Source of the DNA: a virus
Taxonomy: Duplodnaviria; Caudoviricetes
IMG/VR virus record: IMGVR_UViG_3300002307_000018
Span: 160,001-224,000 of that record
Direction: 5' to 3' (one strand)
Length of the DNA: 64,000 nt
Below, piece after piece: positions 4,166 through 59,580 of this stretch; the first letter of the stretch is position 1; every line of letters begins with the position of its first letter. The notes beneath the pieces are model-generated. The model was given only the letters and a program-made list of their open reading frames with translations, was not told the origin of the DNA and searched no databases. Both the position numbers and the translations under genes were made by a program.

Positions 4166-5137
4166 TTAAGCGAAGATTTCCAGTGCTGTTCCACACTCGA
4201 CACAGAACTTTGCCGTGGCTTTGTTCTGACGCCCACAAGTCACGCACTTTGGTTTAGTCTTGACTGTCACTGACTTGATCACAGGCTTGTTGTCTGGTGT
4301 CTCGCCCAATAGTCGAATGACCATTGAGAACTTCTCACTGTCCATGGCTCCCATTGTAGTGGTCGAGAATCGCTGATTACTCCGACTGCCGGACACCGTA
4401 ATACCCGCATCATTGAACCCCATGTCCATGGTAGCGCAGCCATCGTGAACTTCACCTGATGATGTGGGTTTGATATTGTTGTCCCTGAGATACTGATTGA
4501 CAGCCGCCGATGCTACCTCGCCAGTAAACTTTCCACTGCTCATATCAGCACTACGAGCGATACCGCCTACATTGTATACACCGCTTACGCCGGTATTGTT
4601 TGTAGTTAGACTAGCGTTGGTAGTATTAGTGGCAAGACTTGCGTTGTACGCATTGACCTGACCGCCGCTGGCTGATAACCAATGTCCCGGTACATCAAGT
4701 GAATTATACCCCGAGCCAACTTTCAAGCCATTGTAGTAGTGATCCTGACCAACATTTCTAAACACAGATGGTGTGCGAATCTGTGCGATACTTTCAAATT
4801 GATATTCAATTTTTACTAGTCCATCCTCCAGTTGAACGCCGCGATGTTGTTCAACTGCGCCAGTACGCTCAATGAACTTGAACCGGTTACCCGCTGTTAG
4901 GCTACCGTTGAGCAGACTACGCTCCAATTCACATTCACTGAGTCCATCGACTACAAGGCCGCCTGGAGTTTGGTTGACACCATCGATGAACACATTGACT
5001 ACTGCTCTGGTTGTGTGTTGATTTTTAAGTAAGATTGAATATTCTGTGCCGAACGGAATGTATACCGTGTCTTTGAATTCACGCAGAACTTTACCTTTGG
5101 ATTTTATGGCGAATGCCATCTTTGATTGGTACATCAT
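4166..5137 (-). CDS. Conserved large-phage protein with C-terminal double zinc ribbon
   Basis: 323 aa ending CVTCGRQNKATAKFCVECG. Confidence 0.7.
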   Translation of the reverse strand: MMYQSKMAFAIKSKGKVLREFKDTVYIPFGTEYSILLKNQHTTRAVVNVFIDGVNQTPGGLVVDGLSECELERSLLNGSLTAGNRFKFIERTGAVEQHRGVQLEDGLVKIEYQFESIAQIRTPSVFRNVGQDHYYNGLKVGSGYNSLDVPGHWLSASGGQVNAYNASLATNTTNASLTTNNTGVSGVYNVGGIARSADMSSGKFTGEVASAAVNQYLRDNNIKPTSSGEVHDGCATMDMGFNDAGITVSGSRSNQRFSTTTMGAMDSEKFSMVIRLLGETPDNKPVIKSVTVKTKPKCVTCGRQNKATAKFCVECGTALEIFA

Positions 5138-6812: not shown

Positions 6813-7100
6813 TCATTCTGGCCGTTTGATACCGGACAATTTTCTTAGATCATCAATATCAGGGTTCTCTTTAAGTATGCGTTTCATGTTGCGGCGTTGT
6901 TGATACTTCTTGTACTTGTTTTTGACTGGATCCCAGAAACCTTCAAAAAAGTTTTCCCAGTTTTTGTGTACGATGCCTTGATGTAGCCACACAAATGCAA
7001 GCAGATACCACCAGAGCGGTCTGGCATACCAATGCCACTTTTCTCTGTCACTAAATGCCATGGCTTGAAATGCTTGGTAATGGTCTTCAACTATTTTCAT
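6813..7100 (-). CDS. Hypothetical protein
   Basis: Start re-called at MKIVEDH, coupled to the upstream stop. Confidence 0.55.
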   Translation of the reverse strand: MKIVEDHYQAFQAMAFSDREKWHWYARPLWWYLLAFVWLHQGIVHKNWENFFEGFWDPVKNKYKKYQQRRNMKRILKENPDIDDLRKLSGIKRPE

Positions 7101-41683: not shown

Positions 41684-42187
41684 TTAAGCTGCGTTAGCGT
41701 CTTTCATCTGTCGTTGATATTCGACCATTGACTTGAATCTATCTGCTGCGTATGACGCTGCCCAAGCGTTGGGCTTGGTCATTGGAATCACGTTACACAT
41801 TCCACGAATATAACCCACAGCTTCGTTAACCACAATGCTTGAATTATGAATCTCGTTTGGGTTAATATCCAAGTGAACTTCGATATCGTGTGCCACAACT
41901 TCGCTCAGTTTCAAGTACAGATCAGCGATCTTATACACTTCAGTCATTAGTCGCATACGTGGCTTGTTAACGTGTTGTTCGTAGTCACGCTCACGATCTA
42001 CTGCACCGAAAATCTTGCAACCTTGATTGCCGTTAATGTGAACTACTACCGCTGTAATATAGTCAGCATACCAAACGTTGTCGATTTGAAAACGTTCACT
42101 ATCGCAGCCGATATAAACTCGGGTATTAGTGTCACATGTTTCCAAAAATTGTACCACATCATCTACGTTGATATGCTTCTTATACAT
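41684..42187 (-). CDS. RNase H-like YkuK-family protein
   Basis: VYIGCDSE, IEVHLDINP and KPNAWAASYAAD motifs. Confidence 0.8.
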   Translation of the reverse strand: MYKKHINVDDVVQFLETCDTNTRVYIGCDSERFQIDNVWYADYITAVVVHINGNQGCKIFGAVDRERDYEQHVNKPRMRLMTEVYKIADLYLKLSEVVAHDIEVHLDINPNEIHNSSIVVNEAVGYIRGMCNVIPMTKPNAWAASYAADRFKSMVEYQRQMKDANAA

Positions 42188-57067: not shown

Positions 57068-57144
57068 TGGCGGACTGGACGAGACTCGAACTCGCAACTT
57101 CCGCCGTGACAGGGCGGTGCTCTAACCAATTGAACTACCAATCC
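57068..57144 (-). tRNA. tRNA-Asp(GTC)
   Basis: CCGCC-CTGTCAC-GGCGG, canonical, CCA. Confidence 0.93.
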
Positions 57145-57155
57145 AAAACTTAATA

Positions 57156-57271
57156 ACCATATTGAAATACACTACAACTCTGGCAACACGATTTACACTC
57201 TTAAATGAGATACGTCATCGGGCTTTCCTAGGAACCCTTTCCAGTCTTAAGGTAATGTACTTCAATATGGT
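57156..57271 (-). ncRNA. Conserved-stem RNA unit B
   Basis: ACCATATTGAAGTACATT...AGTGTATTTCAATATGGT around an insert of about 80 nt with hairpins. Confidence 0.6.
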
Positions 57272-57377
57272 CATCACTACTGAGAATCGAACTCAGTTGG
57301 CCAGTCTGCGCTAGACTGAGAGATACGCTCGGTGATAAATTATCTTACCTTTTCTCTTGCCTCACCATTATGTGATT

Positions 57378-57450
57378 ACCATATTGAAATACACCAAACT
57401 ACTTAGGCCGCGATAGGGGCCATTGTTCATCTGATGTACTTCAATATGGT
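57378..57450 (-). ncRNA. Conserved-stem RNA unit C
   Basis: Same arms around an insert of about 39 nt with a GGCC/GGCC hairpin. Confidence 0.6.
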
Positions 57451-57545
57451 GTCGATTGGCCAAGATCAACAAGAATAAACCTAGCTCTGTTTCCATGGTT
57501 CAAAGCATCTAGTCTCACCAGTGACTTTTCGTCTATTCTTACTTA

Positions 57546-57666
57546 CCATATTGAAACACTCTGTCATTTCAGACTATACACCCTTGCCAGATGTCAACCA
57601 TAATAGGTTCCTGTTAATTCAGGTACTGTAAAACTTCTTTCATAAAGTTTTGTGCTTCAATATGGC
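57546..57666 (-). ncRNA. Conserved-stem RNA unit D (covariant arms)
   Basis: CCATATTGAAGCAC...GTGTTTCAATATGG with the G.U pair kept. Confidence 0.6.
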
Positions 57667-57788
57667 GTCCTATCGTCGTTTCCGGACAATTGGCGGTCAA
57701 GCCACAGCCCTTCATCTATTGTCGAACTCATGCGATTCTGTTTGGGGTCCGGTGTGACTAGCAACGACCTCCCTCCCGATCTACACTC

Positions 57789-57915
57789 AAACCATATTGA
57801 AATACACTCTTTAAACAAGTTTATCGGCACTGCCTCTTGTTGCGGCTGCTCACGGGTTTATCATATTTTATAATAATAAACGCTGCCTTATACTGAATGT
57901 ACTTCAATATGGTTT
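57789..57915 (-). ncRNA. Conserved-stem RNA unit E
   Basis: AAACCATATTGAAGTACATT...AGTGTATTTCAATATGGTTT. Confidence 0.6.
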
Positions 57916-58026
57916 CTATTGTGGGACTCGAACCCACAGTTTGCAACGGTTTCGATGAGTTTTATCTCATCGGAGGGTTTAAGCGTCCCGCCGCCGTCTG
58001 CGTCTACCTTTACCGCTATTATAAAC
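57910..58026 (-). ncRNA. tRNA-Leu-like RNA with expanded core
   Basis: GGTAGACGCA D-region, CTTAAA loop, T-arm GTGGG-TTCGAGT-CCCAC; its 3' CCA is the start of the unit E arm; weak acceptor stem. Confidence 0.45.
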
Positions 58027-58027
58027 A

Positions 58028-58115
58028 CCATATTGAAATACACTATCGTGATTTGCGCCCCACCCGACACTTCCCGCCGGTACCGCTCTCTCCACGTTAA
58101 TGTACTTCGATATGG
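58028..58115 (-). ncRNA. Conserved-stem RNA unit F
   Basis: Same arms with one mismatch; GC-rich nested insert CGTG..CACG, CCGGC..GTCGG. Confidence 0.6.
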
Positions 58116-58256
58116 CAACTACCGTTCGACCAAGGGCGTGTGACCATTGCAGCCAAACAGTAGTTAATCCATTGCCTAGATTGTGCGTTTACATCTGCTA
58201 GGCGCAGGTGGTCAACCGTAGCACAATACGTCTTGTAGTACTGAGTACTTCAAAGG

Positions 58257-58341
58257 TGGTGGAGATTACTGGGATCGAACCAGTCGTGGGCAAGCCCGCC
58301 GGATTTACAGTCCAGTGCATCACCATTGATGCTTCATCTCC
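58257..58341 (-). tRNA. tRNA-Tyr(GTA)
   Basis: CTGGA-CTGTAAA-TCCGG, variable arm, CCA. Confidence 0.9.
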
Positions 58342-58895: not shown

Positions 58896-59040
58896 ATATT
58901 AGCGAATAAAATAACACACAGTGAAAAATACAATCAACCCATACAAAAATTGTAGTGATGTACGATGAATTTCTTTTACTGTGTCTTCTTCTGTTTGATA
59001 TTCTACTGTGTACATATTGTTTCCTTTGAAACTAGTACTT

Positions 59041-59150
59041 ATCATTATTGAACACACTACACGGGAATCGAACCCGCCTACACCGTAAATTAACACGCTG
59101 CTATGTCCATCACTCAGCGTGGCCTACGCCTTTATGTGTTCAATAATGAT
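59041..59150 (-). ncRNA. Conserved-stem RNA unit H with an internal tRNA T-arm
   Basis: Perfect 16-bp arms ATCATTATTGAACACA/TGTGTTCAATAATGAT; insert has CACGCTG/CAGCGTG and GCGGG-TTCGATT-CCCGT. Confidence 0.6.
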
Positions 59151-59539: not shown

Positions 59540-59580
59540 ATACTACTATTATAACTGAATTCTGATTTACTGTCAAGAGA
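59540..59580 (-). promoter_or_regulatory. Sigma70-type promoter driving the ncRNA/tRNA array
   Basis: TTGACA-17-TATAAT on the minus strand about 40 nt upstream of unit J. Confidence 0.7.

What the first reader, a model, noticed from the sequence alone, without database searches (positions are those of the whole stretch)
57268..58026. tRNA-like RNAs whose 3' CCA is the first part of the next cassette stem
Seen (minus strand): a T-arm ACTGAG-TTCGATT-CTCAGT is followed by AGTGATG-A-CCA running straight into TATTGAAG of unit B, with a CAGTC/GACTG hairpin upstream. A Leu-like RNA with GTGGG-TTCGAGT-CCCAC ends AATAGAA-A-CCA running into unit E. The distal arm TGG can pair with that CCA. Units C, D and F also begin with CCA. 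Inference: the cassette stem doubles as a 3' trailer that masks or presents a CCA end, coupling release of the cassette to maturation of non-canonical tRNA mimics.
Basis: partly seen in the sequence, partly recalled or inferred. Interest (0 to 1): 0.66.

Follow-up and report, generated by a model that had tools for sequence, protein, structure and literature searches.

The report
Phage tRNA ends fused to hairpins
In the tRNA gene array of an uncultured giant freshwater T4-like phage, two odd tRNA-like RNAs end in a CCA that is also the first three bases of a conserved 20-base-pair RNA hairpin. Ordinary tRNAs show the same fusion in dozens of related phages, so it is a real design feature, probably for cutting small RNAs out of one long transcript, but its purpose is untested.

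Summary
On the minus (tRNA) strand, two non-canonical tRNA-like RNAs (57268-57378 and 57910-58027) end in N-CCA, and that CCA forms base pairs 1-3 of the closing stem of hairpin cassettes B and E.

The junction is neither chance nor special to mimics. In uncultured phage contigs, 22 distinct cassettes start exactly on the CCA of a bona fide tRNA (12 anticodon identities). Nine more, including the two in this window, follow a cryptic T-arm.

The stem is an RNA-level structure:
- Wobble pairs fall on the tRNA strand 78:6.
- Inner pairs covary.
- Uninterrupted length has a median of 20 bp.

The Arg-like mimic is under selection: 7 of 11 pairs show compensatory changes across 5 lineages. The Leu-like one is compatible but unproven.

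My best reading (about 50%) is that the stem is an RNase III-type processing stalk. Cutting it would free the cassette RNA and leave a short trailer that is trimmed back to CCA. Phage T5 RNAIII, as annotated, has this same architecture.

The cassettes match no Rfam family, and I found no description of them in the papers searched. This scan has met the same family before on other phage DNA. I rate it a new variant of a known kind (stable RNAs in T4/T5 tRNA clusters). The function is unknown.

The parts
57268..57378 (-). Arg-like tRNA-like RNA. It has an anticodon-like hairpin CAGUC-UAGCGCA-GACUG, a T-arm CUGAG-UUCGAUU-CUCAG and a 3' strand AGUGAUGA-CCA. The region 5' of these replaces a normal D-arm. 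The CCA (57270-57268) is shared with cassette B.
   Evidence: Sequence. ARAGORN -ps80 calls a 68-nt tRNA-Arg(GCG) at 57272-57339. There is no Rfam tRNA hit. Homologs exist in L089, L121, L122/L134 and L125. All 11 pairs are 100% paired, 7 show double changes, and 0/500 shuffles reach the covariation score.
57157..57270 (-). Cassette B: closing stem CCAUAUUGAAGUACAUU / AGUGUAUUUCAAUAUGG around an 80-nt interior.
   Evidence: Fold z = -6.3. CM R1 scores 65.4 bits on the minus strand against 40.7 on the plus strand. The interior is 94% identical to L065.
57910..58027 (-). Leu-like tRNA-like RNA. It has an acceptor-like stem (5/7 pairs), a D-arm (GCG/CGC with a GG loop), a helix GACGG/CCGUU enclosing two hairpins (one loop contains CUUAAA), and a T-arm GUGGG-UUCGAGU-CCCAC followed by AAUAGAA-A-CCA. 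The CCA (57912-57910) is shared with cassette E.
   Evidence: Sequence. ARAGORN calls it only at -ps70 -i. Homologs exist in L063 and L158, plus near-identical copies of L063. 90.8% of cells are paired, against 31-58% in slid controls, but covariation is not significant.
57792..57912 (-). Cassette E: the same closing stem around an 87-nt interior.
   Evidence: Fold z = -7.0. CM R1 scores 56.7 bits.
57379..57449 (-). Cassette C.
57546..57665 (-). Cassette D. It is 99% identical to L025:127-246, where it sits in a different neighbourhood.
58028..58115 (-). Cassette F.
58116..58256 (-). Module between tRNA-Tyr and cassette F. It contains a hairpin with an invariant 21-nt loop UGCAAUGGUCACACGCCCUUG and ends in UUG-CCA of cassette F.
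   Evidence: The 21-mer is exact in 5 other phage loci, always at the same distance (16 nt) before a cassette, and its flanking stem covaries.
57450..57545 (-). Inter-cassette module with no T-arm. It is conserved in L011 (90%).
57666..57791 (-). Inter-cassette module with no T-arm next to the cassette. It is conserved in L025 (82%), but there it lies downstream of the D-like cassette.
58257..58341 (-). tRNA-Tyr, the upstream boundary of the array.
57068..57144 (-). tRNA-Asp. It starts 12 nt after the end of cassette B.
59548..59576 (-). Perfect sigma-70-type promoter (TTGACA-17-TATAAT) upstream of cassettes E9, E8 and E7, the tRNAs and this array. No terminator-like site lies on this strand before 57000.
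   Evidence: It is conserved in at least 9 related loci.

Best explanation
**What it is.** The segment is part of one long early transcript of a T4-like jumbo phage. That transcript strings together tRNAs, tRNA-derived non-decoding RNAs and 'cassettes'. A cassette is a hairpin whose roughly 20-bp closing stem has a nearly fixed sequence and whose interior differs from copy to copy. The stem's first three base pairs are C-G, C-G, A-U. Wherever a tRNA or tRNA-like RNA precedes a cassette, its own 3' CCA supplies those bases, so the precursor holds the CCA (and in B and E part of the acceptor strand) in a duplex.

**How I think it works (inferred).**
1. A double-strand-specific endonuclease, most likely host RNase III, cuts both arms a few base pairs above the base of the stem.
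2. By analogy with T5 RNAIII, the cassette RNA would start at UGAAG (57264 for B, 57906 for E) and end at UUUCAAU (57161, 57796) with a 2-nt 3' overhang.
3. The upstream RNA keeps a trailer of about 3 nt (UAU). Host 3' exonucleases trim this back to CCA.
4. The piece left on the downstream side is removed by RNase P where a tRNA follows.

**Status of the steps.** Shown: the structure, its strand, its conservation, its junction with CCA, and its co-transcription context. Inferred: the nuclease, the cut sites, and that the released RNAs are stable and functional.

**The two mimics.** They are most likely diverged tRNA genes (Arg-ACG-like and Leu-UAA-like) kept for a non-decoding role. They are comparable to the 'tRNA-like stable RNAs' of phages T4 and T5, whose function is unknown.
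For: **RNA-level stem on the tRNA strand.**
- G-U versus A-C asymmetry agrees with the nearest tRNA's strand in 78 cassettes and disagrees in 6.
- There are frequent wobbles at pair 11 (G-U 56, G-C 30, A-U 26) and pair 16 (U-G 76, C-G 22, U-A 12).
- The CM scores the minus strand 9-25 bits above the plus strand.

**Length and fold.** Uninterrupted stem length has a median of 20 bp and a mode of 19-20. This matches what I recall, from general knowledge, as the minimal substrate of bacterial RNase III. All five hairpins persist in the MFE and centroid folds of the 1.2-kb transcript.

**The junction is general.**
- 22 distinct tRNA-CCA/cassette overlaps cover 12 tRNA identities.
- In 8 distinct junctions (10 instances before removing duplicates) the final GG of the cassette is nucleotides 1-2 of the next tRNA.
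- Other cassettes end 5-8 nt before the next tRNA.
- 573 of 594 tRNAs in these loci, and 27 of 27 in the window, encode CCA.

**Location.** Cassettes occur only in the tRNA region of this 264.6-kb genome. They lie downstream of a perfect promoter with no intervening terminator.

**Mimic under selection.**

**Precedent in phage T5 (GenBank AY543070).**
- The record annotates tRNA-like stable RNAs and stable RNAs interleaved with tRNAs.
- The RNAIII precursor forms a 20-bp stem that begins in the GCCA end of RNAI and ends in the first bases of tRNA-His.
- Its annotated mature ends leave a 2-nt 3' overhang.

**Precedent in phage T4.** RNase III takes part in T4 tRNA maturation, as stated in PMC4810235 (citing McClain 1979).
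Against: - No RNA ends have been measured for this phage or any relative, and the host is unknown.
- The stem sequence is far more conserved (several positions at 97-100%) than RNase III recognition would require. This hints at a sequence-specific partner, or at homogenisation by recombination.
- The phage record (74% complete) encodes no RNase III.
- I did not check the experimental basis of the T5 RNAIII end annotation. The cassette covariance model scores T5 RNAIII at only 12.4 bits, E 0.31, so T5 is an analogy and not a shown relative.
- Counts across contigs include orthologous copies and are not independent events.
Confidence: 0.5

Rival explanations
1. tRNA punctuation without RNase III. 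The cassettes are released purely by the tRNA-processing enzymes acting on the flanking tRNAs and tRNA-like modules: RNase P at the downstream tRNA, and an RNase Z/BN- or RNase E-type cut at the CCA. The stem then only protects the released RNA from exonucleases.
For: - Cassettes are framed very precisely by tRNA ends: CCA overlaps the stem in 22 cases, and GG equals tRNA nucleotides 1-2 in 8 distinct junctions (10 instances).
- tRNA-like modules keeping a T-arm plus a 3' strand sit where no tRNA is available.
- The same logic is documented for MHV68 TMERs, where a tRNA-like element is followed by hairpins freed by tRNase Z (PMC4838037).
Against: - 101 of 132 distinct cassettes have neither a tRNA nor a T-arm directly upstream, and some cassettes are only 10 nt apart. 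tRNA enzymes alone cannot separate these.
- The cut site would lie inside a stable duplex.
- From general knowledge, an encoded CCA is an anti-determinant for many RNase Z enzymes.
Confidence: 0.2
2. The fixed stem is the binding handle of an unidentified sequence-specific protein, from phage or host. The cassettes are a swappable set of small RNAs that work as ribonucleoproteins (guides, decoys or sponges). The CCA overlap is then only compaction of the array.
For: - Stem sequence is nearly invariant, with wobbles common at fixed positions.
- Interiors are conserved between phages at 80-99% but unrelated between paralogs.
- The family is phage-only: 3 hits among the representative genomes of 185,579 species, and all 3 are phage-like tRNA arrays.
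Against: - No candidate protein was identified. There is no Ro/TROVE and no RtcB in the record.
- The interiors have no significant complementarity to the phage's own genome.
- This reading is compatible with, and not exclusive of, RNase III processing.
Confidence: 0.15
3. The cassettes are selfish or recombination modules: MITE-like elements, or linkers for modular shuffling like the PeSL cassettes of T4-type phages. They prefer to land at tRNA 3' ends, and the CCA overlap is an insertion footprint with no RNA function.
For: - Cassette D is 99% identical to a copy in another phage whose flanks are unrelated.
- Module order differs between phages, with breakpoints at the cassette borders.
- The elements have terminal inverted repeats.
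Against: - The strand bias of wobble pairs is 78:6, and there are many compensatory changes.
- No target-site duplications are visible.
- No two copies within one genome share an interior.
- Cassettes are restricted to the transcribed tRNA strand and region.
Confidence: 0.1
4. The two tRNA-like segments are decaying tRNA pseudogenes. They merely keep the position, and the CCA junction, that they had when they were working tRNAs.
For: - Neither is called by standard tRNA finders.
- In the window's Leu-like copy the acceptor stem pairs at only 5 of 7 positions (G1-A72 mismatch). Both homologs pair at 6 of 7, one with a standard G1-C72 pair.
- One Arg-like homolog has CUA in place of CCA.
- The anticodon loop has A33 and C37 in place of U33 and a purine.
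Against: - The Arg-like element keeps its two helices through 7 compensatory pair changes in 5 lineages. It also keeps an invariant loop motif, CGCA, and a conserved non-tRNA 5' region.
- The Leu-like insert of about 50 nt is conserved in 3 lineages.
- Comparable tRNA-like RNAs of T4 and T5 accumulate as stable RNAs (GenBank annotation; PMC3014915).
Confidence: 0.15

Closest known systems
Phage T5 stable RNAs in the tRNA region: RNAIII, RNAIV and RNAI, plus the 'tRNA-like stable RNAs' RNA1, RNA2 and RNA3 (GenBank AY543070 annotation)
   Same: - tRNA-like RNAs and hairpin RNAs are interleaved with tRNAs on one strand.
- The RNAIII precursor folds into a 20-bp closing stem that starts in the GCCA end of the preceding RNA and ends in the first bases of tRNA-His.
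- The stem even shares CCAnA(n)UUGAA ... UUCAAUnUGG with the cassettes.
- The function is unknown.
   Different: - T5 has single, dissimilar hairpins, not a multi-copy family with one fixed stem.
- The cassette covariance model gives T5 RNAIII only 12.4 bits (E 0.31), so common descent is not shown.
- The T5 RNAs were seen as stable RNAs in infected cells. The cassettes here have never been observed as RNA.
Phage T4 species 1 and 2 RNAs (rnaC, rnaD) in the T4 tRNA cluster
   Same: - They are small RNAs co-located with tRNAs in a T4-type phage.
- rnaC carries a T-arm (CCGGG-UUCGAAU-CCCGG) next to its 3' end, with large non-tRNA insertions. This resembles the two mimics here.
- Their roles are still unknown (PMC3014915, PMC9697503).
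   Different: - No sequence similarity was detected: the CM search of the T4 locus found nothing.
- T4 has no repeated fixed stem.
- In T4 the CCA of the preceding RNA is not part of the next RNA's stem.
RNase III processing stalks (stems flanking 16S/23S rRNA; phage T7 early-transcript sites); RNase III in T4 tRNA maturation
   Same: A duplex of about 20 bp within a polycistronic stable-RNA transcript separates neighbouring products. The leftover tails are trimmed by other enzymes (general knowledge; PMC4810235 for T4 and rRNA).
   Different: - Here the stalk closes a variable cargo rather than flanking the mature RNA.
- It has one near-invariant sequence shared across many phages, and it incorporates the upstream CCA.
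- Cleavage is untested.
MHV68 TMERs (tRNA-miRNA-encoded RNAs)
   Same: A viral tRNA-like element is directly followed by one or two hairpins. The release of those hairpins is coupled to 3' processing of the tRNA-like part (PMC4838037).
   Different: TMERs belong to a eukaryotic virus, are Pol III transcripts, and use tRNase Z and Dicer. Their CCA is not encoded or paired. There is no common ancestry.
Bacterial Y-RNA-like YrlA (tRNA-like domain closed by a long stem that binds Ro)
   Same: A long terminal stem is combined with tRNA-like parts. Some cassettes (for example 59043-59148) carry a T-arm directly before the 3' arm.
   Different: There is no Rfam Y RNA/YrlA match. The phage record has no Ro/TROVE and no RtcB gene.

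Membership tests
Canonical tRNA (Rfam RF00005 / ARAGORN) | Scores above threshold with a tRNA covariance model or a default tRNA finder | tested here: not met
   No RF00005 match at E up to 10 in 57145-58256. Default ARAGORN finds nothing. Only -ps80 and -ps70 -i give calls.
Canonical tRNA (Rfam RF00005 / ARAGORN) | T-arm with a UUCRANY loop, then a 7-nt acceptor strand, a discriminator and CCA | tested here: met
   CUGAG-UUCGAUU-CUCAG with CCA at +9. GUGGG-UUCGAGU-CCCAC with CCA at +8.
Canonical tRNA (Rfam RF00005 / ARAGORN) | 5-bp anticodon stem with a 7-nt loop carrying U33 and purine 37 | tested here: not met
   The Arg-like loop is UAGCGCA or CAACGCA (A33, C37). In the Leu-like RNA the anticodon arm is replaced by a two-hairpin insert of about 50 nt.
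Canonical tRNA (Rfam RF00005 / ARAGORN) | 7-bp acceptor stem | tested here: inconclusive
   Arg-like: 6/7 pairs with the proximal strand in the window but 4-5/7 in homologs, while an alternative distal strand UAAUCAC pairs at 5-7/7. Leu-like: 5/7 in the window and 6/7 in L063 and L158.
Fixed-stem hairpin cassettes of phage tRNA arrays (model R1 built here) | 17-bp closing stem CCAUAUUGAARYRYAUU / AGURYRYUUCAAUAUGG on the tRNA strand, around a variable interior | tested here: met
   Cassettes B, C, D, E and F score 38.7-65.4 bits (E 6e-7 to 2e-13) on the minus strand. Folds give z = -6 to -9.
Fixed-stem hairpin cassettes of phage tRNA arrays (model R1 built here) | Location inside a phage tRNA array, with the stem able to start on the CCA of the preceding tRNA | tested here: met
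   Within the own genome, cassettes occur only at 213685-225708 among 31 tRNAs. There are 22 distinct tRNA junctions in relatives. The window supplies two junctions with tRNA-like RNAs.
RNase III substrate | Uninterrupted duplex of about two helical turns (about 20 bp) | tested here: met
   Median 20 bp, mode 19-20.
RNase III substrate | Staggered cleavage of both strands leaving 2-nt 3' overhangs | not testable with these tools
   The only support is an analogy: the annotated ends of T5 RNAIII leave a 2-nt 3' overhang.
T5 RNAIII-type stable RNA | Sequence or structure homology to T5 RNAIII | tested here: inconclusive
   R1 with filters off scores 12.4 bits, E 0.31, at L160:4278-4399. The motif CCAnA(n)UUGAA / UUCAAUnUGG is shared.
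MITE / transposon with terminal inverted repeats | Target-site duplication and several near-identical copies per genome | tested here: not met
   No direct repeats flank the units. Interiors within the genome are unrelated. The strand-biased wobble pairs argue for RNA-level selection.
Y RNA / YrlA | Rfam match and a Ro (TROVE) partner gene | tested here: not met
   No Rfam match. PF05731 is absent from the 264.6-kb record.

The most novel reading that the evidence does not exclude
The fixed stem is a purpose-built clamp on the CCA end. By holding the 3' end of tRNAs and of tRNA decoys in a duplex until a specific nuclease or phage protein acts, the phage would control when these RNAs become usable, or visible to host tRNA-targeting defences. 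The non-decoding Arg-like and Leu-like RNAs (altered anticodon loops) would be decoys for host anticodon nucleases. The released cassette RNAs would form a swappable anti-defence or regulatory RNA repertoire. Together this would be a new phage RNA-processing system, with the stem as its common recognition element.
Probability: 0.1. Interest if true: 0.85.

Novelty: new variant of a known kind. Interest (0 to 1): 0.6.

Why it matters
Large phages carry tRNA arrays whose non-tRNA content has been ignored since the T4 and T5 'stable RNAs' were sequenced decades ago and left without a function.

- **What is new here.** In a widespread group of uncultured freshwater phages, that content is organised by one fixed 20-bp stem that is physically fused to tRNA CCA ends.
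- **Testable predictions.** This gives concrete, mappable predictions for how such arrays are processed.
- **A search handle.** The covariance model and the junction rule offer a way to find hundreds of unknown phage small RNAs.
- **A defined object for an old question.** The tRNA-like RNAs, with selected helices but disabled anticodon loops, are a defined object for asking what T4 rnaC/rnaD-type RNAs do.

If only the ordinary reading holds (RNase III stalks), the finding is still a tidy, previously undescribed processing architecture.

Tried and rejected
- **Rfam at gathering and at E up to 10.** Nothing but tRNAs, and chance hits over the cassettes.
- **GenBank phages by blastn**, using the region and one whole cassette. 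Only tRNA matches and chance 22-25-mers.
- **Antisense targets of the cassette interiors in the phage's own genome.** Only chance-level 11-16-mers.
- **Phage-encoded partner enzymes.** No RNase III, CCA-adding enzyme, Ro/TROVE or RtcB in the record.
- **Co-occurring ORFs.** A phosphoesterase (20 loci), an RNase H-like PF04308 protein (15 loci) and an Rnl1 ligase recur near cassette arrays. A scan with the PF04308 protein returned only close relatives from the same clade, so association cannot be separated from shared ancestry.
- **Alternative register.** I considered arms pairing around each tRNA, like rRNA stalks. I rejected it as the basic unit because isolated cassettes always have the 5'-arm/3'-arm order, and the full-transcript fold keeps that register.
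- **Promoter or terminator function of the arms.** No consensus sites and no U-tract.
- **Host-chromosome copies.** None. The 3 hits in genome bins are phage-like tRNA arrays.
- **More Leu-like homologs.** A metagenome scan gave one new lineage and near-identical copies of L063, too few for a covariation test.
- **Literature searches.** No description of this element was found.
Full report
**Context.** The window is bases 160001-224000 of a 264.6-kb IMG/VR virus record that is about 74% complete. RIIA and NAMPT homologs mark it as a distant T4-type phage. ARAGORN finds 27 tRNAs in the window and 31 in the record. All lie on the minus strand within about 22 kb, and all 27 in the window encode CCA. 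A perfect sigma-70-type promoter (TTGACA-17-TATAAT, 59576-59548, minus strand) lies upstream. No terminator-like site on that strand separates it from the region in question. The region is therefore most simply read as part of one polycistronic early transcript.

**The observation.** Between tRNA-Tyr (58257-58341) and tRNA-Asp (57068-57144) lie five hairpin cassettes:

| Cassette | Coordinates |
|---|---|
| F | 58028-58115 |
| E | 57792-57912 |
| D | 57546-57665 |
| C | 57379-57449 |
| B | 57157-57270 |

They share the arms CCAUAUUGAAGUACA and UGUAUUUCAAUAUGG and have unrelated interiors of 41-91 nt. Each folds with z = -6 to -9. All five persist in the MFE and centroid folds of the 1.2-kb transcript.

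The segment before B ends in a T-arm, then AGUGAUG-A-CCA. The segment before E ends in a T-arm, then AAUAGAA-A-CCA. In both, the CCA forms base pairs 1-3 of the next stem and pairs with the terminal UGG of the 3' arm. The B stem continues 6 bp further into the acceptor-like strand, and the E stem continues 3 bp.

**Are the two segments tRNA-like?** Standard tools say no. Default ARAGORN and the Rfam tRNA model at E up to 10 find nothing. Relaxed ARAGORN calls a 68-nt Arg(GCG) at 57272-57339, and a Ser(CGA) with an arbitrary 37-nt 'intron' at 57910-58024.

A motif scan of the whole record shows that the T-arm-plus-CCA arrangement is not chance. Outside called tRNAs, a 5-bp stem with a TTCGA-type loop and a CCA 8-9 nt later occurs four times. 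All four are on the tRNA strand inside the tRNA region.

Comparative data settle the Arg-like element. Homologs exist in four further phage lineages (L089, L121, L122/L134, L125). They keep the anticodon-like hairpin and the T-arm with 100% of cells paired. Seven of the 11 pairs show changes on both sides, and no shuffle in 500 reaches the covariation score. Its 7-nt loop keeps CGCA but has A33 and C37, so it is unlikely to decode. Its 5' part is a conserved non-tRNA domain. One homolog keeps CCA with no cassette behind it, and another has CUA with a cassette.

The Leu-like element has homologs in two further lineages. A cloverleaf-like model with an extra helix that encloses two hairpins fits 90.8% of cells, against 31-58% in slid controls. 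With only three sequences, covariation is not significant. The window copy has the weakest acceptor stem of the three.

**The cassette family.** In the fetched loci plus the window I found 137 and later 161 minimal hairpins with both arms. They lie in dense tRNA arrays.

- The consensus is a 17-bp stem, CCAUAUUGAAGUACAUU / AGUGUAUUUCAAUAUGG. Several positions are 97-100% conserved.
- Transition-only variation occurs at positions 11-14 and is compensated in the partner arm.
- Wobbles are frequent at pair 11 and pair 16.
- Where the two strands differ in pairing, the better-paired strand is the tRNA strand in 78 cases and the other strand in 6. The covariance model built here scores the minus strand 9-25 bits higher. 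This is the signature of selection on RNA, although many copies are orthologs and not independent events.
- Uninterrupted stem length has a median of 20 bp.
- The family matches no Rfam family. It was not found in GenBank phages at blastn sensitivity. It was found in only three contigs among the representative genomes of 185,579 species, and all three are phage-like tRNA arrays binned into freshwater MAGs.
- Within this phage, cassettes occur only in the tRNA region.

**The junction is general.** In the related loci, 22 distinct cassettes begin exactly on the CCA of an ARAGORN tRNA. These cover 12 anticodon identities: Gln, Glu, Ile, Thr, Asn, Val, Tyr, Phe, two Leu, Ser and Gly. Nine more distinct cassettes, including the two in this window, follow a cryptic T-arm. 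All 22 tRNA-preceded cassettes start with CCA, against 62 of 101 that have no tRNA or T-arm upstream (Fisher p = 1e-4). At the other end, in 8 distinct junctions (10 instances before removing duplicates) the cassette's final GG is nucleotides 1-2 of the next tRNA. Others end 5-8 nt before it, often with a UAAUUU leader.

What is not right is the restriction to mimics. In this array, cassettes C, D and F follow modules with no T-arm. One of these modules is a different conserved hairpin, with an invariant 21-nt loop found in five other phages.

**Mechanism.** The precursor must be cut at or near the CCA, and that site sits inside a stable duplex. A 3' exonuclease could not trim through it. A duplex of two helical turns in a polycistronic stable-RNA transcript is the classical setting for RNase III. 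RNase III is reported to take part in T4 tRNA maturation (PMC4810235).

Phage T5 offers a concrete precedent. Its GenBank record annotates 'tRNA-like stable RNAs' and 'stable RNAs with unknown functions' among the tRNAs. I found that the RNAIII precursor forms a 20-bp stem (z = -6.3). The stem starts in the GCCA end of RNAI and ends in the first bases of tRNA-His. The annotated mature RNAIII starts 7 nt into the 5' arm and ends with a 2-nt 3' overhang, which is the RNase III geometry.

Transferred to this window, the analogy predicts:
- cassette RNAs from 57264 to 57161 (B) and from 57906 to 57796 (E);
- a 3-nt UAU trailer on the tRNA-like RNAs, to be trimmed back to CCA.

I give this reading about 50%. 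Against it:
- The stem sequence is far more conserved than RNase III would need.
- No nuclease is encoded in the record.
- The cassette model does not significantly recognise T5 RNAIII (12.4 bits, E 0.31).
- I could not check the experimental basis of the T5 ends.

**Rivals.**
1. Excision by tRNA enzymes alone (tRNA punctuation, as in MHV68 TMERs, PMC4838037). This fits the precise framing by tRNA ends, but it cannot separate tandem cassettes or the 101 cassettes without an upstream tRNA.
2. A sequence-specific protein handle. This fits the invariance, but no partner was found. It could coexist with RNase III processing.
3. A mobile or recombination-linker reading. Cassette D is 99% identical to a copy in another phage with unrelated flanks, and module order differs between phages. 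The strand-biased wobbles, the compensatory changes and the lack of target duplications argue that RNA function is primary and shuffling a by-product.
4. Plain pseudogene decay of the two mimics. The covariation contradicts this for the Arg-like element. It remains open for the Leu-like copy in this window.

**Comparison with what is known.** The closest known things are the T5 stable and tRNA-like RNAs and the T4 rnaC/rnaD RNAs. T4 rnaC also carries a T-arm beside its 3' end. Their roles remain unknown (PMC3014915, PMC9697503). The present case differs in three ways. One fixed stem is repeated about ten times per genome. That stem is shared across many phages. The upstream CCA is built into it. 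I therefore class it as a new variant of a known kind.

Earlier notes of this scan describe the same cassette family in this genome and in other phage contigs, with similar readings. One of them gave me the lead to look at T5, which I then examined myself. My T4 comparison and the junction statistics were made before I read those notes.

Noticed in passing
window 58116-58170 (minus): A small hairpin module whose 21-nt loop, UGCAAUGGUCACACGCCCUUG, is identical in five other phage contigs. Its stem covaries. It always ends 16 nt before the CCA of a cassette.
   Followed up: partly
window 59043-59148 (minus), and many loci in alignment A9: A subfamily of cassettes has a tRNA-like interior: a T-arm (for example GCGGG-UUCGAUU-CCCGU) sits directly before the 3' arm. 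The long closing stem therefore takes the place of an acceptor stem. About ten members with related interiors appear in A9.
   Followed up: partly
window 54319-54414 (minus), and record position 225208-225224 (beyond the window): Two more cryptic tRNA-like elements, each with a T-arm plus 8-9 nt plus CCA. The first gives a sub-threshold Rfam tRNA-Sec match (22.8 bits) and abuts tRNA-Cys. Neither is followed by a cassette.
   Followed up: no
window 57546-57665 vs L025:127-246: Cassette D is 99% identical to a copy in another phage contig, while both flanks are unrelated. The neighbouring module sits on the other side there. This points to recent modular exchange at cassette borders.
   Followed up: partly
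window 49561-50613, 50972-51580, 41684-42187 (minus): An Rnl1-type RNA ligase, a calcineurin-like phosphoesterase and an RNase H-like PF04308 protein lie in or beside the tRNA region. All three recur near cassette arrays in related contigs (5, 20 and 15 loci). The first two look like a tRNA repair set. The third has no known role.
   Followed up: partly
window 59548-59576, 54932-54960, 54176-54204 (minus): Two perfect and one near-perfect sigma-70 consensus promoters lie inside the RNA island. The first is conserved in at least nine related contigs, but different cassettes follow it in different phages.
   Followed up: partly
L160 (phage T5, AY543070) 4276-4400 and 6830-6962 (minus): The T5 RNAIII and RNAIV precursors form long closing stems. 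The annotated mature ends lie inside these stems with short 3' overhangs. The RNAIII stem shares CCAnA(n)UUGAA / UUCAAUnUGG with the cassette consensus.
   Followed up: partly
L124, L125, L126 (genome contigs): Contigs binned into freshwater MAGs (Planktophila, Aquiluna, Crocinitomicaceae) are dense phage-type tRNA arrays carrying cassettes. They are probably mis-binned phage DNA. At most they are a weak hint about the hosts.
   Followed up: no
window 58899-59096 (minus): This ORF (65 aa from GTG; 39 codons from an internal ATG, by my reading), with a hydrophobic C-terminal half, sits between cassette E7 and tRNA-Asp. It has tblastn matches (47-58% identity over 35-44 aa) in four related contigs.
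   Followed up: no
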